Positions 9,181 to 25,317 are shown, counted from the stretch's first letter. The stretch: 64,000 nucleotides of DNA from a bacterium (GCA_963693055.1 OY843751.1:1984001-2048000); one strand, 5' to 3'. Numbers and translations are program-made. Notes: generated from the sequence alone by a model not told the origin.

Positions 9181-10566
9181 TTAACGTATCAATGTCATTT
9201 TACGTATTGTTTTGGTGTTACCTGCACACAATTCGTAATAATAGATTCCGCTTGCTACGGGTGATTGGTTTGCATCACAACCGTTCCACTCGATTTGGTA
9301 AGAACCAGCGGATTGTGTTTGATGTACCAGCGTATTGATTCGTTGTCCCATATTGTTGTATATGGACAATTCTACATTTGATTGCTGCGTAATGGAATAA
9401 CTGAGGGTGGTTGTAGGATTAAAAGGATTGGGATAGTTTTGGGCCAATTCAATTGTTGCCGGAATTTGGGATTGTGGATGTATTCCTGTGGGATCACCAT
9501 CAATGGCTTCCAGAATTCCCAAGTCTTTGGTACCATTGCCTATTACATCCGATTCCCAGATTATAGTATCCTGTTGAACATCCAGTTTTTGTACATGGCC
9601 GTCACCACCCCATTCTTTCATATAGGGAACCCAGACCACATCCAGCGAATTATCATAGAATAACCGCTGCAAATTGGGACCAACAAGAATGGGATTTGAT
9701 GCATCTCGCAATGCTGTACCTGTATTGGCATCATATGAGCAGATATAACCATTCACACCATCACCCCAGGCTGGGCAATATCCCTTGCCATCTACAGTAA
9801 TCACCAGATCACCGGGGGTAAAGGGAGTGGTATGTTCAGCGTCATGCCAGCCAAAATCCACTGTATCCACAGCGGCGGGGGTGTTTTGATTATCACCCGT
9901 ATGAAGATCAATAATCACTACAGAGCCGGCTGTGGTTGCATAATCACCGGTGCAAACCACATTTAATCGTCCATCCGGGGCTATTGCAACATCTTGAGCG
10001 TTGACTGGCGTGTTAACTGTATGGATTACCATATCATTTTCCGCATCGATAATTGAAACAGAGGATTGTTCATAAGGCATTCCCCAGCCCGCGTAACCGG
10101 TATTGGTCACAAACGCTTGACCGTCTTTGCACAAAATTCCTTCAGGCGCTACACCTACTGCAATATTGCCTGTAACCGTACCCGTTGCAAGGTCAATTAC
10201 AGAAACCGTGTTGGCAACATAGTTTGTAACATAGGCTTTATCTGAATCCGGGAACGCGATAGCCCAGGGATTACTACCTTCAGCCAGAGCAATGGTTTGA
10301 ACAACCTGATTGTTTTGCTGCGGATCAATGATCATAATATCATCAGTACCGGAATTGACGATATAGATTAAATCATTAAAAACTACCAACTGATTCGGCA
10401 TTTGTCCGGTTGTCACAATATTAGACTGGATACTCCAATCATCCATTGACATGGATGATACCGTTTCAGCGGATTCGTTCAGCGTATAAAGTGTTCTAGG
10501 AATGCCTGCAAATGCACATGTGTATAAAAGCAGAATCATAAACAACAGACATCTTTTGGGGTACAT
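9181..10566 (-). CDS. YncE/BtuG-like beta-propeller with C-terminal FlgD-Ig/T9SS-type sorting domain; probable cobalamin-binding protein
   Basis: YVTN-type repeats (AYVTNYVANTVSVIDL, AFVTNTG); C-terminal LAQNYPNPFNP...WNG...ASGIYY; directly downstream of a B12-riboswitch-controlled receptor. Confidence 0.75.
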   Translation of the reverse strand: MYPKRCLLFMILLLYTCAFAGIPRTLYTLNESAETVSSMSMDDWSIQSNIVTTGQMPNQLVVFNDLIYIVNSGTDDIMIIDPQQNNQVVQTIALAEGSNPWAIAFPDSDKAYVTNYVANTVSVIDLATGTVTGNIAVGVAPEGILCKDGQAFVTNTGYAGWGMPYEQSSVSIIDAENDMVIHTVNTPVNAQDVAIAPDGRLNVVCTGDYATTAGSVVIIDLHTGDNQNTPAAVDTVDFGWHDAEHTTPFTPGDLVITVDGKGYCPAWGDGVNGYICSYDANTGTALRDASNPILVGPNLQRLFYDNSLDVVWVPYMKEWGGDGHVQKLDVQQDTIIWESDVIGNGTKDLGILEAIDGDPTGIHPQSQIPATIELAQNYPNPFNPTTTLSYSITQQSNVELSIYNNMGQRINTLVHQTQSAGSYQIEWNGCDANQSPVASGIYYYELCAGNTKTIRKMTLIR

Positions 10567-10585: not shown

Positions 10586-12868
10586 TTAATAGTTCACTAC
10601 CAGACCCAATCGCCACTCTCGTCCGGTCATTGGCATGTCCCGAATGGTTTCATAACAGCTATTGGATATATTATAAATTGAAAATTTGAGAATCAGTGTT
10701 GTTTTTAAAATATCTTGTGTAATTGAGCCATTGAGGTCCCATACCTCATAAGGATCCAACCAACGGGTATTGGCATCATTCACAAATCGCTTACCCACTT
10801 GACGAAAATTGAGCCCCAGATCTATATTGTAAAAATGTCCGGTAATTGTGCCTTTAAATGTTTTTTGAGGCCGATAGGGAATGATCTTGTTGCGGGTGGT
10901 TTGGTTATCACTTTTATTGAGAGGGTCCAGCTCTGAATAGCTGACATTCAAATGAAACCAATCATTGGGCGTATTCATTGAGACCAGATATTCTGTGCCA
11001 GAGATTTCCGCGTGCGTGTTGTACGGACTGAATACTTCAAAGCTTCCCAGACGCCATACAATCAGATTGTCGATTTGGTTTTTAAATGTACTGAATTCCA
11101 TTCTTAATGTGAAAGGATTGAAAAATTCCAAACCTGCACCTGTTTCGGTTTGAATGCTTTTTTCAGGGAGCAGGTCAGGATTTCCGTCAATGCGAACGTC
11201 CTGGTAAAACAGGTCCGCAAAAGTGGGCACCCGAAACGTGTGTGCATAACCGGATTTGATGTAAATGCGTTTTTCATTTCCCGCAGAAATGCGGCTATTT
11301 ATTGCTGGTCCCCAATGTTCATCAATTCGTTCATCATCATAACCCGAACTTTTACTGTGTCGGGTATCATAACGTAGGGAAGGAGAGATGCTCCATTTTA
11401 TCTGCTTACGGATTGGAATATTGATTTGTGGATTTATATAAAATCCATGAGCGGTTTCATTCGCCTGTTGTTTTGTGGGATTCAATACCGTCATCAGGTT
11501 TTCATTGTCGTATTGCTGTTTTCTAAAAGTATGCCCTGTTGTAAAATCGAGCCAGGAGTAGGGATTTGTGTTGAATTCGCTGTTGACAATAGTTTGATCA
11601 AGGGTGTATTGATAATGATATTGCGGATAGCGTTTGTATTTCAACTCTACATCATCCGGATATAGATTGTGGTTCTCGGTAACGGTTTCCATATATCTCG
11701 GTTGTATTTTGAGATTAAAGTGCTGGTGGTTTAATTGATAATCCAGTCCCCAGCCGGTTTGATTGTATTGAATTCTTGCATAGGGAGTCCAGCCGTCAAT
11801 TTTACCGGGTATGCCCCGATCAGAATCCATATTTTGGAATTGTAGTGCCAGATTGTGGTTTTTTATCTGATAGCCGGTACGCAGAAACAGATTCTGAGTT
11901 TGAATGTCTGCATTCATCCGGTCTTCATGGATGGTTTGATTATCCGAATTTTTATATTCATAAGGATAATTTCCATCGCTGACATTGTATTGATATGTGG
12001 CGATATAGTTCCAGTTTTTGATTCGACCTGAAACCGAAGGCGAGATGCTGTTGTATCCCCAGGCACCGGTGCGGTATTCCAGGTGCAGGTTATTTTTAAT
12101 GTTTTTACGGGTGATAATGTTTACAGCACCGGCGAGCGCACCAGTACCAAATCGGCTGGCGCTTGTACCCTTGTGGATCTCTATTTTTTCAATCATGTTG
12201 ACCGGGACCACAGATAAATCGGCATCCCCACTGGATTGATTGTTCAGGGGGACCCCATCCAGCAATACCAATACCTGGTTGCTCTGGCTGCCGCGTATGG
12301 ATATTTTTTTTGCTCCGCTGCCGCTTTCGTCTGTTATTTCAATTCCGGGTACCTGTGCAATTAACTCGGCGGCATTTTCAGCAGTTTTATTTGTCGTTTC
12401 ATCTATTCGGATCGACCAGACATCAATACCCGGTGAGTCGGTCCATTTTTCAGCATTAATATTTACATCCGGCATGGTTAGAATACGGGGCACTAGCCGG
12501 ATGTCTATTTGTATGGCTTGATCTTTTAATACATGTAAATCATAACGGGTTTGTTTTTCATAGGCGATATGTTCAAATGACAGAGAATAGGTACCTTCAA
12601 GCAGGTTCTTGATCTTAAAATGTCCCTGCCGGTTTGTAATGGTGCCGGTCCCGCTGTTTTGAATAGATATATTAACCCCTTGAACGGGCATGCCCGTTTT
12701 TATATCGGTTACTGTACCCTGTATCTTGATGTCTGATTGGGAATAGAGATGTGTAGAAAATAACAATATCGCAGCAATACTTGCGAGAATTGTTATTTTT
12801 GAGAAAAGTAATTTGAACAAGCAGAATACACCTTTGTGTATCCTGTTTGTGGGATTCACGGATTCCAA
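10586..12868 (-). CDS. btuB: TonB-dependent receptor, probable vitamin B12 transporter (BtuB-like)
   Basis: CarboxypepD_reg-like N-terminus; plug motifs ISIRGS..QVLVLLDGVPLN and IEKIEIHKG..GALAGAVNIIT; GNPDLLPEKS; cobalamin riboswitch upstream. Confidence 0.8.
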   Translation of the reverse strand: MESVNPTNRIHKGVFCLFKLLFSKITILASIAAILLFSTHLYSQSDIKIQGTVTDIKTGMPVQGVNISIQNSGTGTITNRQGHFKIKNLLEGTYSLSFEHIAYEKQTRYDLHVLKDQAIQIDIRLVPRILTMPDVNINAEKWTDSPGIDVWSIRIDETTNKTAENAAELIAQVPGIEITDESGSGAKKISIRGSQSNQVLVLLDGVPLNNQSSGDADLSVVPVNMIEKIEIHKGTSASRFGTGALAGAVNIITRKNIKNNLHLEYRTGAWGYNSISPSVSGRIKNWNYIATYQYNVSDGNYPYEYKNSDNQTIHEDRMNADIQTQNLFLRTGYQIKNHNLALQFQNMDSDRGIPGKIDGWTPYARIQYNQTGWGLDYQLNHQHFNLKIQPRYMETVTENHNLYPDDVELKYKRYPQYHYQYTLDQTIVNSEFNTNPYSWLDFTTGHTFRKQQYDNENLMTVLNPTKQQANETAHGFYINPQINIPIRKQIKWSISPSLRYDTRHSKSSGYDDERIDEHWGPAINSRISAGNEKRIYIKSGYAHTFRVPTFADLFYQDVRIDGNPDLLPEKSIQTETGAGLEFFNPFTLRMEFSTFKNQIDNLIVWRLGSFEVFSPYNTHAEISGTEYLVSMNTPNDWFHLNVSYSELDPLNKSDNQTTRNKIIPYRPQKTFKGTITGHFYNIDLGLNFRQVGKRFVNDANTRWLDPYEVWDLNGSITQDILKTTLILKFSIYNISNSCYETIRDMPMTGREWRLGLVVNY

Positions 12869-12939
12869 ACCTCACCCTCGAAGGTTGAAAATGAAAGCAG
12901 AAAGGCTGTACTGCAAAATGGATTAGATGATGGCCTTTC

Positions 12940-13115
12940 CGACGGCAGGTCTCCTGGCTTGGATTTTATGCCTACTCACCGCACCTTCCCACCTTATGCT
13001 TTCAGGCAGTGGCTGGGTCTAAAGACCGATTGCGGCTTTGGTTATCCTTACAGTAGCGGGGCTGCAACGGATTTGCACCGTTTTCCCTATTATCCCTTTC
13101 GGGCACCGTTATGTC
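12940..13115 (-). ncRNA. Cobalamin (AdoCbl) riboswitch
   Basis: Minus strand reads ggtgccc..aatagggaaaacggtgcaaatccgttgcagcccccgctactgtaa...gccactg...gggaagg...aagccaggagacctgcc, i.e. the B12 box and other hallmark elements, upstream of a TonB-dependent receptor. Confidence 0.95.
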
Positions 13116-13254
13116 TGTTTAATGTAATTATTTTTTTCGAGAATGCAAATGTTTTTAAATTGGGATAATCGCAGAAATTGTTTGATAAAGTTATTATTTT
13201 TATTATCTTGAATATTCTTATATTAATTCAACTAAAATAGTCTTTTGGGAAAAT

Positions 13255-13440
13255 ATGGAAAAAGAAAACCGGATTACACCCGAATCGATAATACCTCAGG
13301 TTGAGAACCGTTCATTTGAAACATTTGAATCCTTTTATGATAGTATCCCTTATGAGGGTTCTTTGGGTATTCTTGCTTTAGGTGCAATGGGGGTGATGGC
13401 CTGGCGAAAAAAACGCGCGGATATAGATAAAAAAGATTGA
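13255..13440 (+). CDS. 61-aa peptide consisting of an acidic leader and a PEP-CTERM-like transmembrane tail
   Basis: IPYEGSLGILALGAMGVMAWRKKR; its stop overlaps the start of the next gene (TTGA at 13437-13440). Confidence 0.7.
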   Translation: MEKENRITPESIIPQVENRSFETFESFYDSIPYEGSLGILALGAMGVMAWRKKRADIDKKD

Positions 13441-15461
13441 GAGGCCAGTTGATGGGAAAACGACTAGCTAAAAAAGTATTGCTGATTGGATGGGACGCCG
13501 CGGATTGGAAGATTATCAATCCATTGTTAGATAACGGGCAAATGCCAGCCTTGGAAAGTCTTGTAAATAATGGCGTAATGGGCAATATTGCCACCCTGGA
13601 CCCACCCATGTCGCCTATGCTTTGGACATCCATTGCAACCGGCAAGCATGCGGACAAGCATGGCATATTGAATTTTACTGAACCCTCACCCCAATCTGCC
13701 GGTATACGACCGGTTTCAGTATCCTCACGTAAAGTTAAAGCTATTTGGAATATTCTAACTCAGGAAAACTATAAAACCCATGTGGTTGGCTGGTGGCCCA
13801 GTCATCCTGCGGAACCGATAAATGGGACCTGTATATCCAACTTTTATCAACGCGCGCATGCCCCCATTGACAAGCCCTGGCCCATGAGACCCGGTACCGT
13901 TTATCCTAAAAGTAGGGAAAAGCTGTTTGATCAACTGCGCGTACATCCGCAGGAGCTCACGGAGGCACATATTCTTCCATTTGTACCGGATGCCGCAAAA
14001 ATTGATCAGGAAAAAGACAAGCGCCTAGAGTCTCTTGCTAAAATTATTGCGGATTGTTCAAGCATCCATTCAGCGGCAACGTGGATGTTGGAGAACGAAG
14101 AATGGGATTTTATGGCAGTCTATTATGACGCCATTGACCATTTTTGTCATGGCTTTATGAATTTTCATCCCCCACGTATGCCGAATGTTCCTGAGGAGTT
14201 GTTTGAGCTTTACAAAGGTGTTGTTACGGGTGGATATCTTTTTCATGACATGATGTTATCGCGTCTGTTACAGCTTGCCGGAGATGATGTGACGGTAATA
14301 CTGGTTTCCGACCACGGCTTTCACTCGGACCATCTACGTCCATTGTCTATCCCCAAAGAGCCGGCGGGGCCGGCATGGCAACACCGTTCTTATGGTGTTG
14401 TATGTATGAAAGGACCGCATATTCAGAAGGATGAAAGAATTTACGGCGCCAATCTGCTTGACATTACCCCAACACTTTTGACACTGTATGGCCTACCTAT
14501 TGGGAAAGATATGGATGGCAAACCGCTGGTACAATCTTTTGACAAGCCTGTTGAACCCGAATACATTCCATCCTGGGAAGAGGTCAAAGGTGAATGCGGA
14601 ATGCTGCCTGAAAATGTACAGCAAGACCCCTATGCGGAACAGGAAGCCATGGAACAGCTTATTGCCCTGGGTTATGTTGAAAAGCCAGGAGATGATCAGC
14701 AAAAAGCCATTGAGCAGACATTGAACGAGTCCCAGTTTTATCTTGCAAGGGTATACATGAATAAAAATATGTATCATGACGCCTTGCCGATTCTGGAAAA
14801 ATTGTATGAAAATCATTCAGATCAAACACGCTTTGCTTTTCATTTGGCTAAATGTTACCAGGTGCTTGGCCGGAATATCAGTGCGCGTAAGGTAGTGGAA
14901 AAAGTAATTGCCGATAATGATAAATACAGTCCGCAGTTTGATTTGTTATTGGGCTCTTTAGCCTTGGCTGATAAAGATTACCAATCTGCGCTTGAATTTT
15001 TGTTAAAAGCAGAAAAAACTCAGCCTCGCCTGCCTGTGCTGCATCAGCAGATCGGGCAGACCTATCTGAAAATGGGCAAGATTGAAGATGCTGAGCGCGC
15101 ATACACGAAAGCGCTGGAGATTGATCCTGACAGTCATATTGCCAATGATGGTATGGCCATGGTCTATCTGCGTCAACGTCGTAACGAAGACGCTGCGTCA
15201 TTTGCATTGAATGCCATTGGTTTAATCTATCATTATCCTATTGCACATTATCACCTGGGGCTGGCATTGACGCGTCTGGAAATGTATGAACGCGCGGCAG
15301 AAGCATTTGAGGTCAGTGCTGTGATTGTACCAGGGTTTAAAAGTGCCCATAGAATGCTGAAATACCTGTATCAGCGTAAACTGAATATGAGCGACAAGGC
15401 GGCAAAACACCAGGTAATTCTTGATGAGATCAATGCAAAACAGGCGGAGAAATTTTTATGA
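13437..15461 (+). CDS. Alkaline-phosphatase-superfamily (type I phosphodiesterase/NPP-like) enzyme with C-terminal TPR repeats
   Basis: VLLIGWDAADW, PPMSPMLWTSIATGK, SDHGF, LLDITPTLL, EQLIALGY, followed by TPR-like helices (AYTKALEIDP). Confidence 0.85.
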   Translation: MRGQLMGKRLAKKVLLIGWDAADWKIINPLLDNGQMPALESLVNNGVMGNIATLDPPMSPMLWTSIATGKHADKHGILNFTEPSPQSAGIRPVSVSSRKVKAIWNILTQENYKTHVVGWWPSHPAEPINGTCISNFYQRAHAPIDKPWPMRPGTVYPKSREKLFDQLRVHPQELTEAHILPFVPDAAKIDQEKDKRLESLAKIIADCSSIHSAATWMLENEEWDFMAVYYDAIDHFCHGFMNFHPPRMPNVPEELFELYKGVVTGGYLFHDMMLSRLLQLAGDDVTVILVSDHGFHSDHLRPLSIPKEPAGPAWQHRSYGVVCMKGPHIQKDERIYGANLLDITPTLLTLYGLPIGKDMDGKPLVQSFDKPVEPEYIPSWEEVKGECGMLPENVQQDPYAEQEAMEQLIALGYVEKPGDDQQKAIEQTLNESQFYLARVYMNKNMYHDALPILEKLYENHSDQTRFAFHLAKCYQVLGRNISARKVVEKVIADNDKYSPQFDLLLGSLALADKDYQSALEFLLKAEKTQPRLPVLHQQIGQTYLKMGKIEDAERAYTKALEIDPDSHIANDGMAMVYLRQRRNEDAASFALNAIGLIYHYPIAHYHLGLALTRLEMYERAAEAFEVSAVIVPGFKSAHRMLKYLYQRKLNMSDKAAKHQVILDEINAKQAEKFL

Positions 15462-16018
15462 TAACGATTGTTTCAGGTTTGCCGCGCTCAGGTACTTCGT
15501 TGATGATGCAAATGCTTGAAAAAGGGGGGATGGACGTTTTAACCGATGGAAAGCGCAAGGCAGATGAGAATAATCAGCGGGGATACTATGAATATGAAAA
15601 AGTAAAAAGTCTTCGTACAAACAATGAATGGCTAAAGAATACTGATGGGAAGGCGATTAAGATTATTGCCCAGTTGCTTCCGTATGTACCCCCAAAAGTG
15701 GAATTCAAAGTTATTTATATGGTGCGACCCATTGAAGAGGTGATTCAGTCCCAACGGAAAATGATCAAAAATCTTGGTAATCAAGGCGCAAGCCTGAGTG
15801 ATGAAGATTTGACCAAGGTTTTTTCAGTACAAACCAACCGTGTGCAAACCTGGTTAGCTATGAACAAGGTTGATTGTTTGTTTATGTTTTTCCCGGAAAT
15901 TCTACATAATCCACTTGAAAAGGCCAATGAGGTTAGTACTTTTCTGGGTACTGAATTGAATACGGATTTGATGGCCACAGTTGTGGATAAAAGCTTGTGG
16001 CATGAAAAAATAGTATAA
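15458..16018 (+). CDS. Sulfotransferase family protein
   Basis: PAPS-binding loop IVSGLPRSGTSLMMQML; N.RGYYE; MVRPIEEVIQSQ; ATGA overlap with the previous gene. Confidence 0.85.
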   Translation: MITIVSGLPRSGTSLMMQMLEKGGMDVLTDGKRKADENNQRGYYEYEKVKSLRTNNEWLKNTDGKAIKIIAQLLPYVPPKVEFKVIYMVRPIEEVIQSQRKMIKNLGNQGASLSDEDLTKVFSVQTNRVQTWLAMNKVDCLFMFFPEILHNPLEKANEVSTFLGTELNTDLMATVVDKSLWHEKIV

Positions 16019-16158
16019 ATGTATCATGTGCCCATATTTTCTTAATCGATTAATAAGAAAATACTAAAAATTCACGTGCAAGACTTGATTTATTTAATTA
16101 AAATCAATATCATTTTATTTCCAATTTGAATAATTTTTTCGATATCGGAGGCAGATAT

Positions 16159-17301
16159 ATGAAAACGCAGTTAGACAAGCGTATTGCAGGGTATTCTGCA
16201 TTGGCAGCAGCCATGTTAACCGGGGCTCAGGGAAAAGCTGAAATAATAAAATATTCTTCAGGAGCTGTCATTAACTCTAATGGTCAAAGTGTAAATTTGG
16301 ATTTTGACAAAATTGATGGTGACGATTTGAATTTATTCCTTTTTTCCAGTACTTTTGCAAAATCTTTTCAAGTAAAAAATTTAGATAATGATTCCGGTGG
16401 TGCTTTTTTAGCTGCAACATTCGGAATCTATGTAAATGCATTTGCTTTGAATCAGAGTAGCAGTATTGGTACAGATAATGCAAATTGGATTGCAGGAAGA
16501 AACGGGATAGGTTTTTTGTGCTACAGCTCTACGGGGTACTGGAACAATCAAAGCAATAAATATTTGGGTGTCAGGTTTGATATAAGCGGGCAAACACATT
16601 ATGGTTGGGTGAAAATGTCTTGTGACGGTACGTCTTTGACTATTCATGAATATGCTTATGAAAATACCCCCAATACAGGTTTTGATGGGCCTCTACCGGT
16701 TGAATTGTCCCTTTTTACAGCAAAATCTGTCAATGGTGCAATAAACCTGAGCTGGACCACCCAAAACGAGATCGATAACCTGGGCTTTATACTTGAACGC
16801 CGATTAAATGATGATACTGAATGGGAAACCATTGCCAGTTACAAAACCCACTCGGAACTAGCCGGGCAGGGTAACAAGAATACACCTACGGATTACCATT
16901 ATGCTGATAGCAATGTCTTTATCGGCAACACTTATGTTTATCGTTTGTCGGATTTGGATGTCAAGGGTGAAATTCATTCCAAACGAGAGATACAGGTAGA
17001 GGCAACCGATGCGGTTGTTCCAGAATCAACCGAGCTGCTTTCCGCGTATCCCAATCCTTTTAATCCCGGTACCAAGGTACAGTATCAACTCGAGTCAGAT
17101 GCGGAGGTAATGCTGAGCGTTGTTGATATAACCGGCCGTACAATCCGCACAATCGTTAATGATAAACAACAGGCGGGTCGTTATGAGTTTGCCTGGGATG
17201 GTAATGACCAGTCCGGCAATTCATCCCCCAGCGGAGTTTACCTACTTTTTCTAAAAGCCGGCAATCTCACCAAAACTCAAAAAGTGACACGTCTGCGATA
17301 A
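16159..17301 (+). CDS. Exported protein with THYGW domain, LPVEL motif and FlgD-Ig/T9SS-type C-terminal domain (paralog 1)
   Basis: GGAGG SD before ATG 16159; MKTQLDKRIAGYSALAAA signal; RFDISGQTHYGWV; PLPVELS; AYPNPFNP. Confidence 0.85.
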   Translation: MKTQLDKRIAGYSALAAAMLTGAQGKAEIIKYSSGAVINSNGQSVNLDFDKIDGDDLNLFLFSSTFAKSFQVKNLDNDSGGAFLAATFGIYVNAFALNQSSSIGTDNANWIAGRNGIGFLCYSSTGYWNNQSNKYLGVRFDISGQTHYGWVKMSCDGTSLTIHEYAYENTPNTGFDGPLPVELSLFTAKSVNGAINLSWTTQNEIDNLGFILERRLNDDTEWETIASYKTHSELAGQGNKNTPTDYHYADSNVFIGNTYVYRLSDLDVKGEIHSKREIQVEATDAVVPESTELLSAYPNPFNPGTKVQYQLESDAEVMLSVVDITGRTIRTIVNDKQQAGRYEFAWDGNDQSGNSSPSGVYLLFLKAGNLTKTQKVTRLR

Positions 17302-17323
17302 TACATTCTGCAAATATATGACA

Positions 17324-17348
17324 TGACCGGGACTAAAAGTCCTGGTCA
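17324..17348 (+). terminator. Hairpin after paralog 1
   Basis: tgaccgggact/agtcctggtca; weak U-tract. Confidence 0.45.
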
Positions 17349-17469
17349 GGGTCTATTTCTTTTGCCTTTAATGTTGTGAATTTTATTCAATAAATCCCTT
17401 GCATTATAATGGAATAATTAATATAATATTAAATTCATATGTATTTCCAAATTTCAAGGAGGGAGTTGG

Positions 17470-18642
17470 ATGAAACCGCAATTGGATAAACGAATTGCAG
17501 GGTATTCTGCATTGGCAGCAGCAATGTTAACCGGGGCACAGGGTAAGGCTGAAATATTGAAATACACATCTGGGGCAGTTCTTAATACCAACGGTCAGAT
17601 TCAAGGTTTAGACTTTGACCAGGTTGGAGGTGATGGTAACGATCTACGATTTTTATGCTATTCTGATGCTTTTACCAAAAAATTCGAAGTACAAAATCTG
17701 GATTTCCCTGATAGCGGCGCCTTTTTAGGATTGCTTTCCGGTCCTTATGTTCTTCCTTTTGCTTTGAATTATTCAAGCAGTATACGTACCAACAGTGTTG
17801 CATGGAACGCCGGTGCTATAGGAGTTGGAATGCTAAATTATAGATGTTTTTCAACTGCAATTACTTATAGTTATGGCTTCTGGGGAAATAAATCCAATAA
17901 ATATATGGGTGTAAGGTTTGATATTAGCGGACAAACACATTACGGTTGGGTGAAAATGTCGTGTAATGGAACGTCGCTCACTATACACGAGTATGCTTAT
18001 GAATCAGTTGCCAATACCGGAATTGATGCTCCACTTCCCGTCAAGCTATCTTTATTTACGGCAGAGTCTGTTAAAAATGCAATTCAGGTAAAATGGACAA
18101 CCCAAAGTGAAGAAGATAATTTGGGCTTTGTTTTGGAGCGCCGGTTGGATTCAGAAACCGAATGGACAACTATAGCTAGTTATCAGACTCATGATGAATT
18201 AAACGGTCAGGAAAATAGTACAAATCAAACAGATTATCAATTCAACGATTCTGATGTATATGCAGGCCATACGTATCATTATCGTTTGTCAGATGTGGAT
18301 GTAAATGGGAATTCCAATTTTCGTAATGAAATTCAGGTCGATGCTACAAACCTGGTTGCACCCAGCGAAACTGAACTGGTGTCTGCATATCCCAATCCTT
18401 TTAATCCGGGAACTACAATACAATACAAGCTGGAATTAGATGATTTTGTAACACTGAGCGTGGTTGATATAACCGGTCGAACGGTTCGTACGTTAGTCAA
18501 AGAAAACCAGCAAGCAGGTCAATATTCATTTGCATGGGATGGAAACGATAATAATGGCAATTCATCTCCCAGTGGTATTTACATGCTGGTATTGCGCAGT
18601 GGGCAGGTTACACGCACTCTAAAAATTACTAGATTACGATAA
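17470..18642 (+). CDS. Exported protein with THYGW domain and FlgD-Ig/T9SS-type C-terminal domain (paralog 2)
   Basis: AAGGAGG SD; signal nearly identical to paralog 1; RFDISGQTHYGWV; PLPVKLS; AYPNPFNP. Confidence 0.85.
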   Translation: MKPQLDKRIAGYSALAAAMLTGAQGKAEILKYTSGAVLNTNGQIQGLDFDQVGGDGNDLRFLCYSDAFTKKFEVQNLDFPDSGAFLGLLSGPYVLPFALNYSSSIRTNSVAWNAGAIGVGMLNYRCFSTAITYSYGFWGNKSNKYMGVRFDISGQTHYGWVKMSCNGTSLTIHEYAYESVANTGIDAPLPVKLSLFTAESVKNAIQVKWTTQSEEDNLGFVLERRLDSETEWTTIASYQTHDELNGQENSTNQTDYQFNDSDVYAGHTYHYRLSDVDVNGNSNFRNEIQVDATNLVAPSETELVSAYPNPFNPGTTIQYKLELDDFVTLSVVDITGRTVRTLVKENQQAGQYSFAWDGNDNNGNSSPSGIYMLVLRSGQVTRTLKITRLR

Positions 18643-18660: not shown

Positions 18661-18699
18661 AGTCCGGCCTGGAATTTTCATTTCAGACCGGATTTTTTT
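18661..18699 (+). terminator. Rho-independent terminator
   Basis: agtccggcctggaat/atttcagaccggatt followed by a T-run. Confidence 0.7.
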
Positions 18700-18888
18700 A
18701 TAATTACCTACCGTTATAAATTTCCTAAACTTTTAGTCGCACTATCCTCGTTTTTTATCTTTTATTGTACTTGATGTTTTTTTTTGGTGTAGTTTCTGCT
18801 ACTCTATAAGTGGCTGTTTATTATTTAGTAATGTTGTAATTATTCAGCGTAAACAAGCTTGTATATTGACCCCGTTAATGGAGGTAAA

Positions 18889-20100
18889 ATGAAAAAAATC
18901 TGGATAGCTCTATTTTTTACACTGTGTTTCTCTTCAATTGTTATTGCACAATCGTCAGAATTTGGTATTAAATTTACCGGTTTTGTTAAAACCGATGTCA
19001 TGTTTGATTCCCGCCAGACGGTTACTGCACGAGAGGGACATTTTCTACTTTATCCTGCCGGTGAAGATCTGGATGTGAATGGAGAAGATGCAAATGCGCA
19101 ACCCAATCTCAATATGCTAGCAATACAAACCCGGCTCAAGGGAGCTATCACAGGTCCGGACGCATTTGGGGCCAAAACATCCGGTTTAATTGAGGCTGCA
19201 TTTTTTGGTCATTCCAATGCGGATGTTAATGGTTTTCGTTTGCGGCATGCTTTTTTAACCCTGGCTTGGGAAAAAAACACACTTTTGGTTGGACAATTTT
19301 GGCATCCCATGTTTGTGACGGGTTGTTTTCCTGGTACAGTTTCTTTTAATACCGGTGTACCTTTTCAACCCTTTTCCCGTAATCCTCAGGTTCGTCTAAC
19401 TCATACAACTGGTGCTATATCACTTTTGGCTGCAGCAGTGTCTCAAAGAGATTTTACCAGTTCGGGTCCCGATGGTGCAGGGTCTCAATATTTAAGAAAT
19501 GCAGCTGTTCCAAATCTACATGGGCAACTTTTAATCAGTGCTGATAAAGTGCTTTTGGGTGCAGGTGTGGACTGGAAAATGTTAAAGCCGAGATTGAAAA
19601 CACCACTGAATTATGTGTCTGACGAAACAGTTTCTGGTGTGTCTGTAATGGGTTTTGCAAAATTCAAATTACCCAAAGCAGAATGGAAGATTTATGGTGT
19701 TTACGGACAAAATCTAACTGATATGGTTATGCTTAGTGGTTATGCTGTTAACAGCATAGATGCTGCAACCGCGCAGGAAAGCTATATACCTACGGATGTT
19801 ATGTCTGTTTGGACTGATTTTTCAACCGGTACTACAATCGCTTATGGCTGTTTTGCCGCCTATACTCAAAATCAGGGTGCTGGTGAAAATATTGGCAGCT
19901 TTTGGGGGAGAGGTTCGAATATTGATAATATATATCGCATTTCTCCACGAATTATGTGGAACTCTGGTAAAACCCGTTTTGCTGCCGAAGTTGAATATAC
20001 CGCAGCCGCATATGGCACGGCTGACAAGCAGGGTAAAGTTCAGGATGCTGAATATGTAAATAATTTGAGATTGTTATTAGCCGCTTATTATTTCTTTTAA
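18889..20100 (+). CDS. Outer-membrane beta-barrel porin (DcaP-like)
   Basis: GGAGGT SD before ATG 18889; signal peptide; GFVKTD, FRLRHAF, LLVGQFW, RNPQVR; terminal YYFF beta-signal. Confidence 0.75.
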   Translation: MKKIWIALFFTLCFSSIVIAQSSEFGIKFTGFVKTDVMFDSRQTVTAREGHFLLYPAGEDLDVNGEDANAQPNLNMLAIQTRLKGAITGPDAFGAKTSGLIEAAFFGHSNADVNGFRLRHAFLTLAWEKNTLLVGQFWHPMFVTGCFPGTVSFNTGVPFQPFSRNPQVRLTHTTGAISLLAAAVSQRDFTSSGPDGAGSQYLRNAAVPNLHGQLLISADKVLLGAGVDWKMLKPRLKTPLNYVSDETVSGVSVMGFAKFKLPKAEWKIYGVYGQNLTDMVMLSGYAVNSIDAATAQESYIPTDVMSVWTDFSTGTTIAYGCFAAYTQNQGAGENIGSFWGRGSNIDNIYRISPRIMWNSGKTRFAAEVEYTAAAYGTADKQGKVQDAEYVNNLRLLLAAYYFF

Positions 20101-20101
20101 T

Positions 20102-20138
20102 AAAAAAAGGTCCCCGGATTTTTTCGGGGACCTTTTTA
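20102..20138. terminator. Bidirectional terminator between convergent genes
   Basis: aaaaaaaggtccccgga-ttt-ttcggggaccttttt. Confidence 0.85.
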
Positions 20139-21671
20139 AAAACGATACCCCAAATCCGTGTAAATACGGTGCCCAAACGTTACATCTCCCCATTCGTACT
20201 CGTAATTCGTTGTTATATAAAATGATGCAGGCAATTCAATTTGTGTGTTAAATTGTAACCATTGACTGTTTCGTTTCAATCCGGATGTTTGATATTCGTA
20301 ATTATAGCTGCCATATCCCAAAGATATATAGTGACCATTTTTCAAATATTTACCTAGTGTAACAGATGGGTGAACACCCCGGGTGTACAAATTTGAGAAT
20401 CCTGAAAAACGGAGTGATAATCTCATTCTTTTTATAAATAGATTGTTTTTATATATACCCAATGAATATGACGTTGTGGTATTTTCATCACTCTTTTTAC
20501 GTAAACCGTAATTTCCAAAGATACGAGTGTCCTTTGTCCACTTGAAATTGATATTACCACGTAATCCTTGTCTGAATGCATCATCAAACAGACTGTCAGC
20601 AACTGACAAGAGTTCATAGGTGTAATAATTTTTATAATTGTTATAAGAGAGTCCGGCTGTGAGCTTTTCTGAGATATTCATACTTGCATTTAAATACAGG
20701 TTGGACAAGCTCACCGTTGATTGGTTTTTTTCTTCTTTCCGCCAATCCCGATTTATATCAAGCTCCATACGTTGATAAAAATACCATCCCTTGTAAGCGT
20801 TTATGCTGCTTTGCAGGTAAACAAATTCTCTGCTCACTATAGAATCATGATATTCACCGGCTGCTGCAAGTGTAACCTCGTATTTTGTTCCTGTAAAATC
20901 GCCCCTGTTGTAGTTGATAAATGTACCATATTTTTGCAGTGAGGTTTGAAAAGATGAATACTGCCATTGAGGTTGAGTACCGGCAAAAGCTCCCAGTTTC
21001 AGATTTTTGAATGTATTGTATTGCAAATTTAATCCGTCAATATACCCCAAGCCACTAAATATATGTGAAATGATTCTGCCGACTTTGTAATTGAGTGTTG
21101 AATTGGGATTGTCATAGGAAAAGGATACCTCATATAAACGGTTACGCCATTCTGTCTCCGGGGTTGTGGAATTATAACGCCTGCTCCTTTGATTGTATCT
21201 GGATCGAAGTTTGATGTTCAGGTTATAATCCCGGTCCCATAATTGTTTGACTTTGAGCTTGAATCTGACCGCGGGTTGTTTGAAATCGTTGTTATATGTT
21301 GAGATATCATTAAATTGATAGTGTTGAAAAACAAGATAACCGCTGTATCTGGTTTTACTGATTGTTTTAGTTTTTGGTTTTTCAGGATTATCAATTCTTA
21401 CCTGGTTTCCTTTACGTAATTCTGTCGAATTTTCAAGAATTCGGCACGTAGCAGAGTTTTTTGAAATATGTGTAATCTCTAATTTTGAAATCATTTCATC
21501 ATTTCTTGAAGCGGTGAGAATATCTCCCAAAACAAGCCCTTTTTCAGTACCCGCGTTAATTACAATCTGATCGTTACTAATATCCTGTATTGTTGCATAA
21601 TCCTGAGCATACAGATTTAAGCTTGGTATCAACAAAATGATAATGATCAAAATGTTTTTGCTTCTAATCAT
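20136..21671 (-). CDS. Outer-membrane beta-barrel partner of the multiheme cytochrome (porin-cytochrome complex type)
   Basis: Probable start ATG 21671 overlaps the cytochrome stop; signal peptide MIRSKNILIIIILL..LYAQ; small N-terminal beta domain (VINAGTEKGL..GD); amphipathic strands; ends YTDLGYRF. Confidence 0.7.
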   Translation of the reverse strand: MIRSKNILIIIILLIPSLNLYAQDYATIQDISNDQIVINAGTEKGLVLGDILTASRNDEMISKLEITHISKNSATCRILENSTELRKGNQVRIDNPEKPKTKTISKTRYSGYLVFQHYQFNDISTYNNDFKQPAVRFKLKVKQLWDRDYNLNIKLRSRYNQRSRRYNSTTPETEWRNRLYEVSFSYDNPNSTLNYKVGRIISHIFSGLGYIDGLNLQYNTFKNLKLGAFAGTQPQWQYSSFQTSLQKYGTFINYNRGDFTGTKYEVTLAAAGEYHDSIVSREFVYLQSSINAYKGWYFYQRMELDINRDWRKEEKNQSTVSLSNLYLNASMNISEKLTAGLSYNNYKNYYTYELLSVADSLFDDAFRQGLRGNINFKWTKDTRIFGNYGLRKKSDENTTTSYSLGIYKNNLFIKRMRLSLRFSGFSNLYTRGVHPSVTLGKYLKNGHYISLGYGSYNYEYQTSGLKRNSQWLQFNTQIELPASFYITTNYEYEWGDVTFGHRIYTDLGYRF

Positions 21672-24600
21672 CTTCAGCATACCCCCTGGGGTGACATGCA
21701 TAACATGCAGAGCTTTCATAAACATATCCACTTTCGTCATCATGTATATCATCCATTTTGACTCTGGTATGTTCGTGACAATTAATGCATTCAAATTGTG
21801 AATAATCATTTGTTGCTACATGGCAATTGTTGCAGGTATTCCATTCACCGGCATGTTCTCCAGAATAAATTGGAAAGTATTGTCTGTCATGGTCCCAATT
21901 TGCCGGCCGCCAGGCCGAGGTGTTGTGACAGCTATTACAGGTTGTTGGGAAATGAGCTGCGCTGTGATTTGGATTGTTGGTGCCATTATAATCATCCATA
22001 TGGCAGGAATAACAATCTGTGGGTGTATTGTCGTATCCGCTGCTATGACAATCTGAGCAGTCCGCATTTAGATGTGCACCGGTTAGTGTAAATGATGTTG
22101 TCGTATGATCAAAAAATGCCGGAATCCATCCATTTATGGAATGGCAGTCCGTACACTCGTGGCTGAAATTGTTACTGACATGATTGGGATCGGTCACGGA
22201 TTCAAAATCAGTTTGATGGCAACTGTAACACTCGGTTGGGATGTTGGTATAGCCCGTACTGTGACAATCAATACAATTGGCTGATGTGTGTGCGCCTTCC
22301 AACGGAAACAAGGTGGCAGCGTGATCAAACTGCGCGGGAGAGAATGCGTTCATACTGTGGCAGTCCGTACACTCGTGGCTGAAATTGTTACTGATATGAT
22401 TGGGATCGGTAACGGATTCAAAATCAGTTTGATGGCAGCTATAGCATTCGATTGGAATGTTGGTATAGCCTGTGGAATGGCAATCGATACAGTTGACCGT
22501 AGTGTGCGCACCTTCCAACGGAAACAAGGTGGCAGCGTGATCAAACTGCGTGGGAGAGAATGCGTTCATGCTGTGACAATCCAGACACTCGTGGCTGAAA
22601 TTGTTACTGACATGATTGGGATCGGTAACGGATTCAAAATCAGTTTGATGACAGCTGTAACATTCAGTGGGTATATTTGTATATCCTGTACTGTGACAAT
22701 CAATACAATTGGCTGATGTATGCGCCCCTTCCAGTGGAAACAGGGTGGTTGCATGATCAAACTGCGCGGGAGTAAAGGCACTCATGCTGTGACAATCCGT
22801 ACACTCGTGGCTGAAATTGTTGATGGCATGATTAGGGTCCGTAACAGATTCAAAATCCGCCTGATGACAGCTGTAGCATTCAGTCGGAATGTTGCTATAG
22901 CCCGTACTGTGACAATCGATACAACTGGCTGATGTATGCGCCCCTTCCAGTGGAAACAGGGTGGTTGCATGATCAAACTGCGCAGGAGAAAAAGCATTCA
23001 TACTGTGACAATCCAGACACTCGTGGCTGAAATTGTTGGTGACGTGATTGGGGTCTGAAACAGATTCAAAATCTGCTTGGTGACAGCTGAAACATTCGGT
23101 AGGAATATTGGTATAGCCCGTACTGTGACAATCAATACAATTGGCTGATGTATGTGCGCCTTCCAACGGGAACAAGGTGGCTGCGTGATCAAACTGAGCG
23201 GGAGAGAATGCGTTCATACTGTGACAGTCTGAACAAATATGACTGAAATTGTTGGTGACGTGATTGGGTTCCGTAACAGATTCAAAATCCGCCTGATGAC
23301 AGCTGTAGCATTCAGTCGGAATGTTGCTATAGCCCGTACTGTGACAATCAATACAATTGGCTGATGTGTGTGCACCTTCCAACGGAAACAAGGTGGCAGC
23401 GTGATCAAACTGAGCGGGAGAGAATGCGTTCATACTGTGACAGTCTGAACAAATATGACTGAAATTGTTGGTGACGTGATTGGGTTCCGTAACAGATTCA
23501 AAATCGGTTTGGTGACAGCTGTAGCATTCAGTGGGTATATTTGTATATCCTGTACTGTGGCAATCAATACAATTGGCTGATGTATGTGCGCCTTCCAGCG
23601 GAAACAAGGTGGCTGCGTGATCAAACTGAGCGGGAGAGAATGCGTTCATACTGTGACAGTCTGAACAAATATGACTGAAATTGTTGGTGACATGATTGGG
23701 CTCAGTCACGGATTCAAAATCAGTTTGGTGACAGCTGTAGCATTCAGTCGGAATGTTGCTATAGCCCGTACTGTGACAATCGATACAATTGACTGATGTA
23801 TGTGCGCCTTCCAGCGGGAACAAGGTGGCTGCGTGATCAAACTGAGCGGGAGAGAATGCGTTCATACTGTGACAGTCCGAACACTCGTGGCTAAAATTGT
23901 TACTGACATGATTGGGCTCAGTCACGGATTCAAAATCAGTTTGATGGCAGCTATAGCATTCGGTTGGTATGTTGATATATCCTGTTGAATGACAATCGAT
24001 ACAATTGGCTGATGTATGTGCGCCTTCCAACGGGAACAAGGTTGTCGCGTGGTCAAATTGCGCCGGAGAAAAAGCATTCATGCTGTGGCAATCCGAACAC
24101 TCGTGGCTGAAATTGTTGGTGACATGATTGGGATCTGAAACAGATTCAAAATCGGTTTGATGGCAGCTATAGCATTCGGGTTTTGTTGCGTTATATCCCA
24201 GAGTATGACAATCACTACAGGATGCGTTCTTGTGTGCACCGTCCAGGCTGAATCCGGTGATTAAATGGTCAAACTGGATAGGATCCCAATTGTTCACGGA
24301 ATGGCATGTCAGGCAGTTTTTGTCAAAATTATTCGCAACATGGTTGGGATCTATTATGTTTGTAAAATCATTAATATGACAATCATAGCATTCCTGTGCA
24401 AGGCCGGTCAACTGATTATTTACATGGCATTCAGTACATTCAAGCGTTGTATGTACACCTAAAAGAGTAAAACCACTGACTTGAGAATGATCAAACTGTG
24501 ACCGGTCCCAGCTTGAAGCCGAATGACATGTTTCACAGAGTGTTGGAAAACCCAATACAGAGTGGTTTGGATTCTGTGTTTCCATATAGTCATTTTGATG

Positions 24601-25317
24601 ACAGGTAAAACAATCAGCGGATTGCTGTGAATAAACACCGGTATGACAATCACTGCACTGCTGATTGTGGGGACCCGTTAGGCCAAAGTTTGCAGTATGT
24701 TCAAAACGTGCCGAATTCCAACTCATGTCTTCTATATAATGACAGGATTGACAATCCAGGCTAAATCCGGCAAGTTTATGGTCAGGATTATCTGTTGTGT
24801 TATAATCATTCAAATGGCAGCCAAAACATTCAACGGGTGTGGTTTTGTATTGAATGCGCTGTTCTTTGTAATGGCAGGCCTCACAGTCCAACTGTTTATG
24901 TGCCCCGGTTAATGGATAATTAAACTCGTTATGTAAATGTCGCATACGTGTATAATTGATCCAATTGTCTGGAGTGTGGCAATTTTCACATTCTGTCCCC
25001 AGTTCACCATGATGTATGTCTGTATGACAGTTGAAGCAATGTTTGTCATTCTTTTCAAATACAAGGTCTGAATGGCATGTTTTACAATGCAGAGAGTTGT
25101 GTTTCCCTTTTAGTGAAAATCCGGTTTCCTGTTCATGATTGAATTCAATGTTTTGAGGATCAACTTGCCAGCTTTCATCTGTATGGCACAGTTCGCAATC
25201 CATTTCAAATTCATCACTGTGGGGATATTCAGCATCCTCTTGTGATAAAATAATGGTAAATTGACATAATAATGAAATAACAAGCATCAGGAATACAAAA
25301 CTGTATTTGATTTTCAC
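21664..25317 (-). CDS. Giant multiheme c-type cytochrome (49 CxxCH motifs)
   Basis: 49 CxxCH counted by hand; probable GTG start at 25317 after AAGGA; Sec signal; 72-aa triheme repeats. Confidence 0.93.
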   Translation of the reverse strand: MKIKYSFVFLMLVISLLCQFTIILSQEDAEYPHSDEFEMDCELCHTDESWQVDPQNIEFNHEQETGFSLKGKHNSLHCKTCHSDLVFEKNDKHCFNCHTDIHHGELGTECENCHTPDNWINYTRMRHLHNEFNYPLTGAHKQLDCEACHYKEQRIQYKTTPVECFGCHLNDYNTTDNPDHKLAGFSLDCQSCHYIEDMSWNSARFEHTANFGLTGPHNQQCSDCHTGVYSQQSADCFTCHQNDYMETQNPNHSVLGFPTLCETCHSASSWDRSQFDHSQVSGFTLLGVHTTLECTECHVNNQLTGLAQECYDCHINDFTNIIDPNHVANNFDKNCLTCHSVNNWDPIQFDHLITGFSLDGAHKNASCSDCHTLGYNATKPECYSCHQTDFESVSDPNHVTNNFSHECSDCHSMNAFSPAQFDHATTLFPLEGAHTSANCIDCHSTGYINIPTECYSCHQTDFESVTEPNHVSNNFSHECSDCHSMNAFSPAQFDHAATLFPLEGAHTSVNCIDCHSTGYSNIPTECYSCHQTDFESVTEPNHVTNNFSHICSDCHSMNAFSPAQFDHAATLFPLEGAHTSANCIDCHSTGYTNIPTECYSCHQTDFESVTEPNHVTNNFSHICSDCHSMNAFSPAQFDHAATLFPLEGAHTSANCIDCHSTGYSNIPTECYSCHQADFESVTEPNHVTNNFSHICSDCHSMNAFSPAQFDHAATLFPLEGAHTSANCIDCHSTGYTNIPTECFSCHQADFESVSDPNHVTNNFSHECLDCHSMNAFSPAQFDHATTLFPLEGAHTSASCIDCHSTGYSNIPTECYSCHQADFESVTDPNHAINNFSHECTDCHSMSAFTPAQFDHATTLFPLEGAHTSANCIDCHSTGYTNIPTECYSCHQTDFESVTDPNHVSNNFSHECLDCHSMNAFSPTQFDHAATLFPLEGAHTTVNCIDCHSTGYTNIPIECYSCHQTDFESVTDPNHISNNFSHECTDCHSMNAFSPAQFDHAATLFPLEGAHTSANCIDCHSTGYTNIPTECYSCHQTDFESVTDPNHVSNNFSHECTDCHSINGWIPAFFDHTTTSFTLTGAHLNADCSDCHSSGYDNTPTDCYSCHMDDYNGTNNPNHSAAHFPTTCNSCHNTSAWRPANWDHDRQYFPIYSGEHAGEWNTCNNCHVATNDYSQFECINCHEHTRVKMDDIHDDESGYVYESSACYACHPRGYAEDD
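22114..24057 (-). repeat. Nine near-identical intragenic 216-bp (72-aa) tandem repeats, with more diverged copies on both sides
   Basis: FDHAxTLFPLEGAHTSxxCIDCH...CYSCH...PNH...CxDCH unit recurring every 216 bp. Confidence 0.95.

What the first reader, a model, noticed from the sequence alone, without database searches (positions are those of the whole stretch)
13255..18642. Candidate undescribed protein-modification/export cassette: orphan PEP-CTERM-like peptide, AlkP-TPR enzyme, sulfotransferase and twin exported proteins
Seen: five co-directional genes, the first three translationally coupled (TTGA and ATGA overlaps). They encode a 61-aa peptide, a phosphodiesterase/sulfatase-superfamily enzyme fused to TPRs with no signal peptide, a PAPS-dependent sulfotransferase, and two paralogous secreted proteins. 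Established: AlkP-superfamily enzymes transfer or remove phospho/sulfo groups, and TPRs bind peptides. Inference: this is a dedicated sulfation/phospho-ester modification system whose substrates are the small peptide and/or the two exported proteins. From memory, the LxKRxxxYSxxA signal with a THYGW...YAYE domain resembles proteins that end in PEP-CTERM in other phyla. Here that domain carries LPVEL + YPNPFNP instead, while a PEP-CTERM-like tail survives as a separate gene.
Basis: partly seen in the sequence, partly recalled or inferred. Interest (0 to 1): 0.85.

Follow-up and report, generated by a model that had tools for sequence, protein, structure and literature searches.

The report
Leader-guided tailoring of exported proteins
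Bacteria of several phyla keep a phosphodiesterase-type enzyme and a sulfotransferase together with exported proteins that have a special tyrosine-containing signal peptide and with a short conserved helix (those proteins' tail in some phyla, a separate micro-protein here), which likely forms an undescribed system for chemically tagging proteins before export.

Summary
All five genes are real, and neither linkage nor co-occurrence refuted the cassette. Only four parts recur around the enzyme across phyla: an NPP/PafA-type AlkP-TPR enzyme with an intact two-metal site, a PAPS sulfotransferase (often fused), exported 'YGW'-domain proteins, and an LGxLAxG..WR helix. That helix is the C-terminal tail of YGW proteins in Acidobacteriota and Planctomycetota. 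Where YGW proteins end in a T9SS-type CTD, as here, it is a micro-gene or is fused to the enzymes. The YGW domain does occur without the enzyme (16 of 810 sampled genomes), but 13 of those 16 lack the LxxYxxxA leader typical of enzyme-linked copies. So the leader tracks the enzyme, not the domain. Likely mechanism (0.45): leader-guided tagging, probably sulfation, before export, with the helix as enzyme partner rather than substrate. Binding and chemistry are untested. Corrections: the enzyme probably starts at ATG 13452, so there is no TTGA overlap, and it is not a formylglycine sulfatase. My literature searches found no description. This scan noted the same system four times before on other DNA.

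The parts
13255..13440 (+). 61-aa micro-protein carrying the LGxLAxG-x6-WR helix (residues about 31-53); free-standing form of the tail of YGW proteins in other phyla
   Evidence: only copy in the genome; PF07589 below cut-off
13452..15461 (+). AlkP-TPR enzyme, 669 aa from ATG 13452 (ORF finder start TTG 13437): NPP/PafA-type domain (D20, S59, D234, H238, D292, H293, H316, numbered from 13437) plus a TPR superhelix; no signal peptide seen
   Evidence: single copy
15458..16018 (+). PAPS-dependent sulfotransferase, 186 aa (GLPRSGTS loop and R90/S98 invariant in 28 sequences); fused to the enzyme in many homologs
16159..17301 (+). Exported protein 1, 380 aa: LxxYxxxA leader (about 1-28), YGW domain (about 29-178), LPVEL/Ig-like linker, T9SS type A CTD
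17324..17348 (+). Terminator-like hairpin between the two exported genes
   Evidence: consensus match only
17470..18642 (+). Exported protein 2, 390 aa; paralog of protein 1 (65% identity) with the same leader and architecture
18661..18700 (+). Hairpin plus T-run closing the cassette (likely intrinsic terminator)
   Evidence: fold -16.4 kcal/mol; not flagged by the scan

Best explanation
This is a conserved four-part gene set that likely tags a family of exported proteins in the cytoplasm, probably by sulfation, before they are secreted. Shown: the enzyme has no signal peptide and an intact NPP/PafA-type two-metal site; the sulfotransferase keeps its PAPS motifs and is often fused to it; enzyme-linked YGW proteins carry an Ala/Gly-rich LxxYxxxA leader; and the LGxLAxG..WR helix is the YGW proteins' own tail, a separate micro-protein, or an N-terminal fusion to either enzyme. 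Inferred step 1: the TPR arm binds the leader helix of the pre-protein and holds it in the cytoplasm. Inferred step 2: the short helix docks on the enzyme as a required partner or membrane-side anchor, which is why it survived as its own gene where the cargo ends in a T9SS-type CTD. Inferred step 3: the sulfotransferase moves sulfate from PAPS to a hydroxyl of the pre-protein, most simply the leader Tyr, because only the leader differs between linked and unlinked copies. Inferred step 4 (least certain): the NPP domain hydrolyses the nucleotide by-product, or adds or removes a phospho-ester through Ser59. Inferred step 5: Sec, signal peptidase and, here, T9SS export the product. Odds: one functional system 0.95; leader-bearing proteins are its targets 0.65; whole chain with sulfation 0.45.
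For: Neighbourhoods: in the clustering of 82 loci, enzyme, YGW and free sulfotransferase were the only clusters in more than 8 loci (79, 52, 16). Of 80 GTDB loci, 52 have a YGW gene within 10 kb and the sulfotransferase is fused in 34 and near in 18. 24 of 26 genomes without an adjacent copy have YGW genes elsewhere, up to 40. Co-occurrence in 810 sampled genomes, centres excluded (75/76, 114/115): enzyme in 29, and 28 of these have a YGW gene (follow-ups; one rests on unpublished G221). 13 of 16 YGW-only genomes lack the leader. Leader L/Y/A in 81/96/92% of 118 enzyme-linked rows; mature domain not different from 11 unlinked rows. In this genome the leader occurs on these two proteins only (26 bits against 10 for the next of 9778 frames). 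Tail: 99 of 99 tail-bearing proteins of 200 aa or more carry the YGW domain; 14 of 15 tail hits in three Acidobacteriota genomes end YGW ORFs; four tail-enzyme fusions sit on separate branches; no exosortase here; 61 of 84 tails have a charged residue inside the would-be membrane span. Seven catalytic residues are invariant in 113-114 of 114 sequences; best folds PafA and NPP at Z 25-27. APS kinase is present; SprA and PorV are present.
Against: No chemistry or expression data. The sulfotransferase is missing within 10 kb in 28 of 80 loci, although found in 5 of 5 Acidobacteriota genomes searched whole. No tail was found near the enzyme in 27 of 80 loci: 21 Acidobacteriota, 4 Bacteroidota (L028, L029, L033, L085), L037 and L092; none either at G509. 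Leader exceptions: 19 of 99 tail-bearing proteins miss the LxxY pattern (some truncated, 5 with a Tyr-less leader), G509 and L094 have atypical leaders, and G524 has the leader but no enzyme, sulfotransferase or tail was found. G821 has the enzyme without a detected YGW gene. A modified leader would be cut off on export, so its purpose is unexplained. The leader profile was built from enzyme-linked genes, so its positive counts are partly circular. Related genomes are not independent.
Confidence: 0.45

Rival explanations
1. Export switch or peptide sensing. The leader (or the signal peptide released from it) is a ligand or a reversibly marked tag for the TPR enzyme: the sulfotransferase writes, the AlkP domain erases or hydrolyses a nucleotide messenger, and the output is the timing of export or a signal, not a decorated surface protein.
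For: All enzyme-linked information lies in the leader and none in the mature domain. A transferase and a hydrolase-type domain are fused in 49 of 120 homologs. TPR-regulated phosphatases that bind short peptides (Rap/Phr) are recalled, not tested.
Against: No regulator, exporter or peptidase recurs in the neighbourhoods. One enzyme serves up to 40 paralogs with varied leaders, which fits processing better than signalling.
Confidence: 0.25
2. Chaperone or sorting factor. The TPR protein and the helix escort weakly hydrophobic pre-proteins to Sec, while both catalytic domains work on a small molecule, lipid or glycan (for example a sulfated anchor or envelope polymer).
For: Leaders are Ala/Gly-rich (0.46 against 0.14) and poor in Leu/Phe/Ile (0.13 against 0.35). 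The best PDB sequence matches of the sulfotransferase are small-molecule SULT enzymes. G905 keeps a catalytically degenerate enzyme beside a leader-bearing gene.
Against: No glycosyltransferase or lipid gene recurs nearby. The cargo uses several different anchors (PEP-CTERM, degenerate tail, T9SS CTD) with the same enzyme. Catalytic residues are invariant in the other 113-114 of 114 sequences.
Confidence: 0.17
3. The micro-protein or tail is itself the substrate (one of the first reader's options), modified on the Ser/Thr just before LGxLA and acting as a RaxX-like peptide or anchor.
For: Ser or Thr precedes the motif in 35 of 38 aligned tails. A ~60-aa ORF next to a sulfotransferase mirrors raxX-raxST (PMC6637879, abstract seen).
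Against: The most conserved residues are L, G, L, A, G, W and R. The peptide is fused to the enzymes four times. No signal peptide or exporter was seen. It does not explain the leader correlation.
Confidence: 0.1
4. No functional link: the genes are co-inherited neighbours.
For: YGW proteins exist without the enzyme (16 of 810 genomes) and as modules of large proteins.
Against: Genome-level co-occurrence holds when the genes are unlinked. The leader dichotomy, the fusions and the presence in many phyla at about 48-74% identity all point to selection.
Confidence: 0.03

Closest known systems
PEP-CTERM / exosortase sorting (TIGR02595, PF07589; PMC1569441 and bioRxiv 10.1101/2023.06.07.544157, keyword passages seen)
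   Same: The helix is a PEP-CTERM variant: YGW homologs L065, L066 and L094 pass TIGR02595; motif, hydrophobic stretch, basic cluster; paralog families of up to 40 per genome.
   Different: Here it is a free-standing 61-aa gene in a genome with no exosortase. It is often too polar for a membrane span, specific to one cargo family and linked to a cytoplasmic enzyme.
RaxX / RaxST tyrosine sulfation of Xanthomonas (PMC6637879 abstract and outline seen; PMC11143521 keyword passages seen)
   Same: Cytoplasmic PAPS sulfotransferase acting before leader removal and export; ~60-aa ORF nearby; a conserved Tyr.
   Different: The conserved Tyr is in the signal peptide of a 220-400-aa Sec-type protein. 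No type I exporter. Added NPP-TPR partner. The sulfotransferase matches TPST structures only in the P-loop.
KxYKxGKxW signal peptide / accessory Sec / GtfAB glycosylation of serine-rich repeat proteins (recalled; two searches gave listings only)
   Same: A specialised signal peptide that co-occurs with dedicated cytoplasmic tailoring enzymes acting before export.
   Different: Different chemistry and hosts. No accessory translocon recurs nearby. A second, C-terminal or detached element is involved.
NPP / PafA phosphoesterases of the alkaline-phosphatase superfamily (5too, 5udy, 7mw8)
   Same: Fold (Z 25.9-26.8, rmsd 2.7-3.5, 268-329 aligned) and metal-ligand pattern.
   Different: Ser in place of the usual Thr nucleophile (recalled for NPP; PafA T79 in the 5too title); cytoplasmic; TPR and sulfotransferase attached; 14-19% identity; substrate unknown.
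HmuY-family beta fold (3h8t, 8b6a)
   Same: Best structural match of the YGW domain (Z 8.0, rmsd 3.4, 122 aligned; six related entries at Z 7.0-8.0 above the rest at 5.5 or less).
   Different: Z is in the range that may reflect a common arrangement. 10-13% identity; no haem ligand tested. A lead only.

Membership tests
PEP-CTERM sorting signal (window peptide) | PEP signature motif and HMM cut-off | tested here: not met
   IPYEG instead of PEP; PF07589 15.3 bits against 20.7; TIGR02595 not listed. TIGR03501 GlyGly-CTERM 15.7 against 15.5 is marginal.
PEP-CTERM sorting signal (window peptide) | Transmembrane helix followed by a basic cluster | tested here: inconclusive
   Basic cluster present; best 19-residue hydropathy only 1.32; 61 of 84 homologous tails have a charged residue inside.
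PEP-CTERM sorting signal (window peptide) | At the C-terminus of a signal-peptide-bearing protein | tested here: not met
   Free 61-aa ORF; met only in cis-tail homologs.
PEP-CTERM sorting signal (window peptide) | Exosortase in the genome | tested here: not met
   PF09721: 0 matches in G000, 100% complete; present in 10 of 10 other enzyme-bearing genomes searched.
NPP/PafA-type AlkP phosphoesterase | Two-metal ligands (D, DxxxH, DH, H) and Ser/Thr nucleophile | tested here: met
   D20, S59, D234, H238, D292, H293, H316 in 113-114 of 114; roles assigned by recalled NPP motif spacing, not by a metal-bound structure.
NPP/PafA-type AlkP phosphoesterase | Fold | tested here: met
   Model pLDDT 93; PafA and NPP Z 25-27.
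NPP/PafA-type AlkP phosphoesterase | Catalytic activity and substrate | not testable with these tools
   Needs an assay.
Formylglycine sulfatase | (C/S)xPxR motif (recalled) | tested here: not met
   S59-P-M-L-W at the nucleophile position; PF00884 matches only the first 105 of 301 positions.
PAPS-dependent sulfotransferase | 5'-PSB loop and 3'-PB R-x7-S motif; Pfam cut-off | tested here: met
   GLPRSGTS, R90 and S98 invariant in 28 of 28 (motif names recalled); PF00685 and PF13469 above cut-off; APS kinase in the genome.
Tyrosylprotein sulfotransferase (TPST/RaxST type) | Similarity beyond the PAPS loop; peptide-Tyr specificity | tested here: inconclusive
   TPST1/2 match only profile positions 2-21; SULT1 enzymes score higher. 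RaxST itself was not compared.
T9SS type A cargo | N-terminal signal, CTD above cut-off, T9SS in the genome | tested here: met
   TIGR04183 33.5 and 38.8 against 23; SprA and PorV above cut-off. Actual secretion was not tested.
Sulfatyrotide RiPP (RaxX type) | Precursor with a conserved core Tyr plus a linked peptidase-ABC exporter | tested here: not met
   No conserved Tyr in the micro-protein; no exporter among recurring neighbours.

The most novel reading that the evidence does not exclude
A new class of export-coupled modification: a cleavable signal peptide is itself the recognised, and possibly sulfated, element, and a C-terminal sorting helix has become an obligatory enzyme cofactor that bacteria keep as a micro-gene, or fuse to the enzyme, once the cargo uses another secretion route. 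It would act on much of an unnamed domain family of over 11,000 sequence clusters.
Probability: 0.35. Interest if true: 0.88.

Novelty: new variant of a known kind. Interest (0 to 1): 0.72.

Why it matters
The sulfated bacterial peptides named in the papers I opened are RaxX, methanobactins and sulfonated lanthipeptides (PMC11143521 passages). This system spans Bacteroidota, Acidobacteriota, Planctomycetota and others (about 2000 GTDB stretches estimated). It would add a widespread tailoring pathway for surface proteins of soil, sediment and aquatic bacteria. It also shows a protein-sorting signal persisting as a separate gene or enzyme fusion where its cargo uses a different secretion tag. 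The leader and the helix give simple markers to annotate an unnamed family (11,202 clusters at E up to 1e-10; no Pfam or NCBIfam model), and the hypothesis is testable with four small genes.

Tried and rejected
Complex prediction (enzyme + YGW domain + peptide) was not available: queue full; nothing was folded. Leader-tail covariation in 139 cis sequences (effective number 71) gave no interpretable signal; the top pairs involve the Tyr column fixed by selection. The idea that the tail mimics the enzyme's own LIALGY helix or the leader: no profile match. PDB sequence search with the AlkP domain: 0 hits. Foldseek with the YGW model: no match at E up to 0.001. ESM Atlas: unnamed clusters for YGW (one IPTL-CTERM set at 0.75, a lead only) and generic PF01663 clusters for the enzyme. 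Promoter and terminator counts were near the shuffled expectation (25 against 18.0; 7 against 5.8). The Acidobacteriota phylum sample (150 genomes) held no ortholog apart from the centre and was not searched with YGW, so it is not in the 810 count. The phylum sample around G329 was nearly uninformative (0 enzyme, 1 YGW in 200). Rejected readings: formylglycine sulfatase; working PEP-CTERM signal; TTGA coupling; YGW domain as the specificity element. Literature searches with no description of the system: 0 papers; 1, listing only, on Acetobacteraceae genomes; 0. Only open-licence PMC and bioRxiv are covered, and no supplements were opened.
Full report
OBSERVATION. The window lies in a one-contig 6.5-Mb genome. 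Peptide, enzyme and sulfotransferase are single-copy, and the N-terminal domain of the exported proteins has exactly two copies. The LPVEL-Ig-CTD end is generic, with about 220 hits. The enzyme more likely starts at ATG 13452 than at TTG 13437: GAGAGG lies 7 nt upstream, homologs begin there and the stored protein is 669 aa. The ATGA overlap with the sulfotransferase is real. Hairpins follow each exported gene.

THE ENZYMES. The AlkP-TPR protein has at least 7927 relatives among 7999 candidates scored. 49 of the best 120 carry the sulfotransferase as a C-terminal fusion. D20, S59, D234, H238, D292, H293 and H316 are invariant in 113-114 of 114 sequences; their assignment as metal ligands and nucleophile uses NPP motif spacing from memory. 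The model (pLDDT 93) matches PafA and NPP enzymes at Z 25-27 and sulfatases at up to Z 24, and there is no (C/S)xPxR motif. It is therefore a phosphoesterase-type, not a formylglycine sulfatase-type, site. No hydrophobic N-terminal segment was seen. The sulfotransferase keeps GLPRSGTS and R90/S98 in 28 of 28 sequences. Its best PDB sequence matches are cytosolic SULT enzymes, with TPST matching only the P-loop, so its acceptor cannot be read from sequence. APS kinase is present in 5 of 5 genomes tested, including this one.

NEIGHBOURHOODS. I fetched the best 80 of 582 confirmed GTDB loci (scan stopped early, about 2000 estimated). They come from Bacteroidota, Chlorobiota, Acidobacteriota, Planctomycetota, Chloroflexota, Thermodesulfobacteriota, Nitrospirota, Pseudomonadota and others. 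Clustering ORFs of 82 loci gave only three families in more than 8 loci: the enzyme (79), the YGW proteins (52) and the free sulfotransferase (16). No exosortase, exporter or glycosyltransferase recurs. Per locus: YGW gene within 10 kb in 52 of 80; sulfotransferase fused 34, near 18, none 28; tail as a separate ORF 32, at the end of a YGW protein 16, PEP-like by a rough pattern 3, fused to an enzyme 2, none 27. Many loci are cut by contig ends. Of 26 genomes chosen because no YGW gene was adjacent, 24 have 1-40 copies elsewhere. The sulfotransferase was found in 5 of 5 Acidobacteriota genomes searched whole.

THE PEPTIDE IS THE CARGO'S TAIL. Its motif LGxLAxG-x6-WR ends YGW proteins in Acidobacteriota, Planctomycetota and Pseudomonadota, sometimes as a true PEP-CTERM. 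In the 32 loci with a separate peptide (28 Bacteroidota or Chlorobiota, 3 unnamed bacteria, 1 Desulfobacterales), no YGW gene carries the tail; these end in CTD-like or other domains. Three cis loci (L031, L035, L081) also gave a hit on a short frame, which look like gene fragments. A database search with the tail alone listed the best 120 of 355 hits. All 99 new hits of 200 aa or more carry the YGW core at 12 bits or more, and one further hit was a tail-enzyme fusion. In three Acidobacteriota genomes, 14 of 15 tail hits end YGW ORFs. The tail is fused N-terminally to the AlkP enzyme in L030, L121 and L131 and to the sulfotransferase in L090. These four lie on separate branches of a quick, unrooted tree. 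This genome has no exosortase, and 61 of 84 tails have a charged residue within the would-be membrane span. I infer that the helix now serves the enzymes rather than a sortase. The direction (cis first, detached later) is inferred from the PEP-CTERM likeness, not shown.

THE LEADER, NOT THE DOMAIN, TRACKS THE ENZYME. The same genome samples were searched with enzyme and YGW queries, centre genomes excluded. Relatives: 2 of 40 have the enzyme and the same 2 have YGW. Order of G054: enzyme 4 of 120, YGW 3; the fourth, unpublished G221, has one next to the enzyme. Class of G041: enzyme 20 of 250, YGW 31, both 18; the 2 enzyme-only genomes have an adjacent YGW gene. Phylum of G329: 0 and 1 of 200. 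Phylum of G327: 3 and 4 of 200, both 2. In total 28 of 29 enzyme genomes have a YGW gene; G821 is the exception, with the enzyme on a 4-kb contig. Thirteen of them have ordinary signal peptides or other N-termini. The other three have the LxxY leader: G464 beside a split enzyme gene and a tail peptide, G905 beside a homolog that has lost six of seven catalytic residues, and G524 on a 2.6-kb contig with no enzyme, sulfotransferase or tail found. Among 118 enzyme-linked rows the leader L, Y and A are 81, 96 and 92% conserved, while mature-domain positions and Tyr/Ser/Thr content do not differ from 11 unlinked rows. The linked leaders are Ala/Gly-rich and Leu/Phe/Ile-poor (79 linked and 12 unlinked rows parsed). 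Caveats: the profile was built on linked genes; only 9-26 candidates per genome were scored in the large samples; genomes are incomplete and related; G509, L094 and 5 tail-bearing proteins have Tyr-less leaders.

THE CARGO. The YGW domain has no Pfam or NCBIfam model but 18,916 representative clusters at E up to 0.001 and 11,202 at 1e-10. It is predicted as a beta domain with a weak HmuY-like match (Z 8.0), a conserved DLNxDG loop (possible Ca site, recalled) and a variable middle. It also occurs inside large proteins with ordinary signals. SprA and PorV homologs here make T9SS export plausible.

MECHANISM. Shown: gene linkage, motif conservation, fusions and the leader dichotomy. Inferred: TPR binding of the leader; the helix as docking partner; PAPS-dependent sulfation before export, most simply on the leader Tyr; and an NPP role in by-product hydrolysis or phospho-ester transfer (0.45 overall). 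The main rivals are an export switch or peptide sensor (0.25), a chaperone with small-molecule chemistry (0.17) and the micro-protein as substrate (0.10). Why a cleavable leader would be modified is the open weak point.

KNOWN SYSTEMS AND NOVELTY. It works like RaxST/RaxX (abstract of PMC6637879, passages of PMC11143521) and, from memory, like KxYKxGKxW-linked glycosylation, and it borrows a PEP-CTERM element (passages of PMC1569441 and bioRxiv 2023.06.07.544157). It fails the membership tests for a PEP-CTERM signal and for a RaxX-type RiPP. Nine literature searches showed no description in the held open-access library; I saw listings and abstract starts, not full texts or supplements. After I had fixed my reading, the scan's index returned four earlier notes on the same system in other genomes. 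They agree with it and are not independent evidence; one mentions a predicted peptide-enzyme binding that I could not check. Verdict: real, widespread and apparently undescribed; new variant of a known kind; interest 0.72.

Noticed in passing
window 12927-13125 (-), 10586-12868 (-), 9181-10566 (-): Cobalamin riboswitch (RF00174, 104.9 bits) ahead of a TonB-dependent receptor and a YVTN beta-propeller with a T9SS CTD: a likely B12 uptake unit, divergent from the cassette.
   Followed up: partly
window 21664-25383 (-) and 20136-21809 (-): 1239-aa protein with 49 CxxCH motifs in tandem repeats, overlapping a 557-aa protein with no NCBIfam match: a possible very large multihaem cytochrome with a porin-like partner.
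   Followed up: no
window 18859-20100 (+): Secreted-looking 403-aa protein ending in an aromatic residue, with no Pfam or NCBIfam match; possibly a porin. Not a recurring neighbour of the enzyme.
   Followed up: no
G000, whole genome: The LPVEL-Ig-CTD C-terminal module has about 220 tblastn hits and PorV-like genes give 11 matches: a very large T9SS-type cargo repertoire.
   Followed up: no
L097 (G004:C36): The cassette is decaying in a same-family genome: enzyme in three pieces, adjacent YGW gene with a Tyr-less leader and a broken end; a second YGW gene elsewhere keeps the leader.
   Followed up: partly
L157:1870-3081 (G905): Enzyme homolog with six of seven catalytic residues replaced, directly downstream of a leader-bearing YGW/PEP-CTERM gene: a possible pseudo-enzyme that keeps a binding role.
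   Followed up: partly
G088, G104, G171, G183, G195 and five more: A second, more distant AlkP subfamily (32-40% identity, frames of 765-1242 aa, up to 4 copies) in 10 of 150 Acidobacteriota genomes; partners not examined.
   Followed up: no
P0256, P0257, P0259, P0264, P0267, P0291, P0307: Large proteins (1284-3498 aa) with 4-5 matched YGW stretches; those with a readable N-terminus have ordinary signal peptides.
   Followed up: no
P0160, P0180, P0189, P0211, P0213: Tail-bearing YGW proteins whose leader is split by an insertion after the LxxY motif.
   Followed up: no
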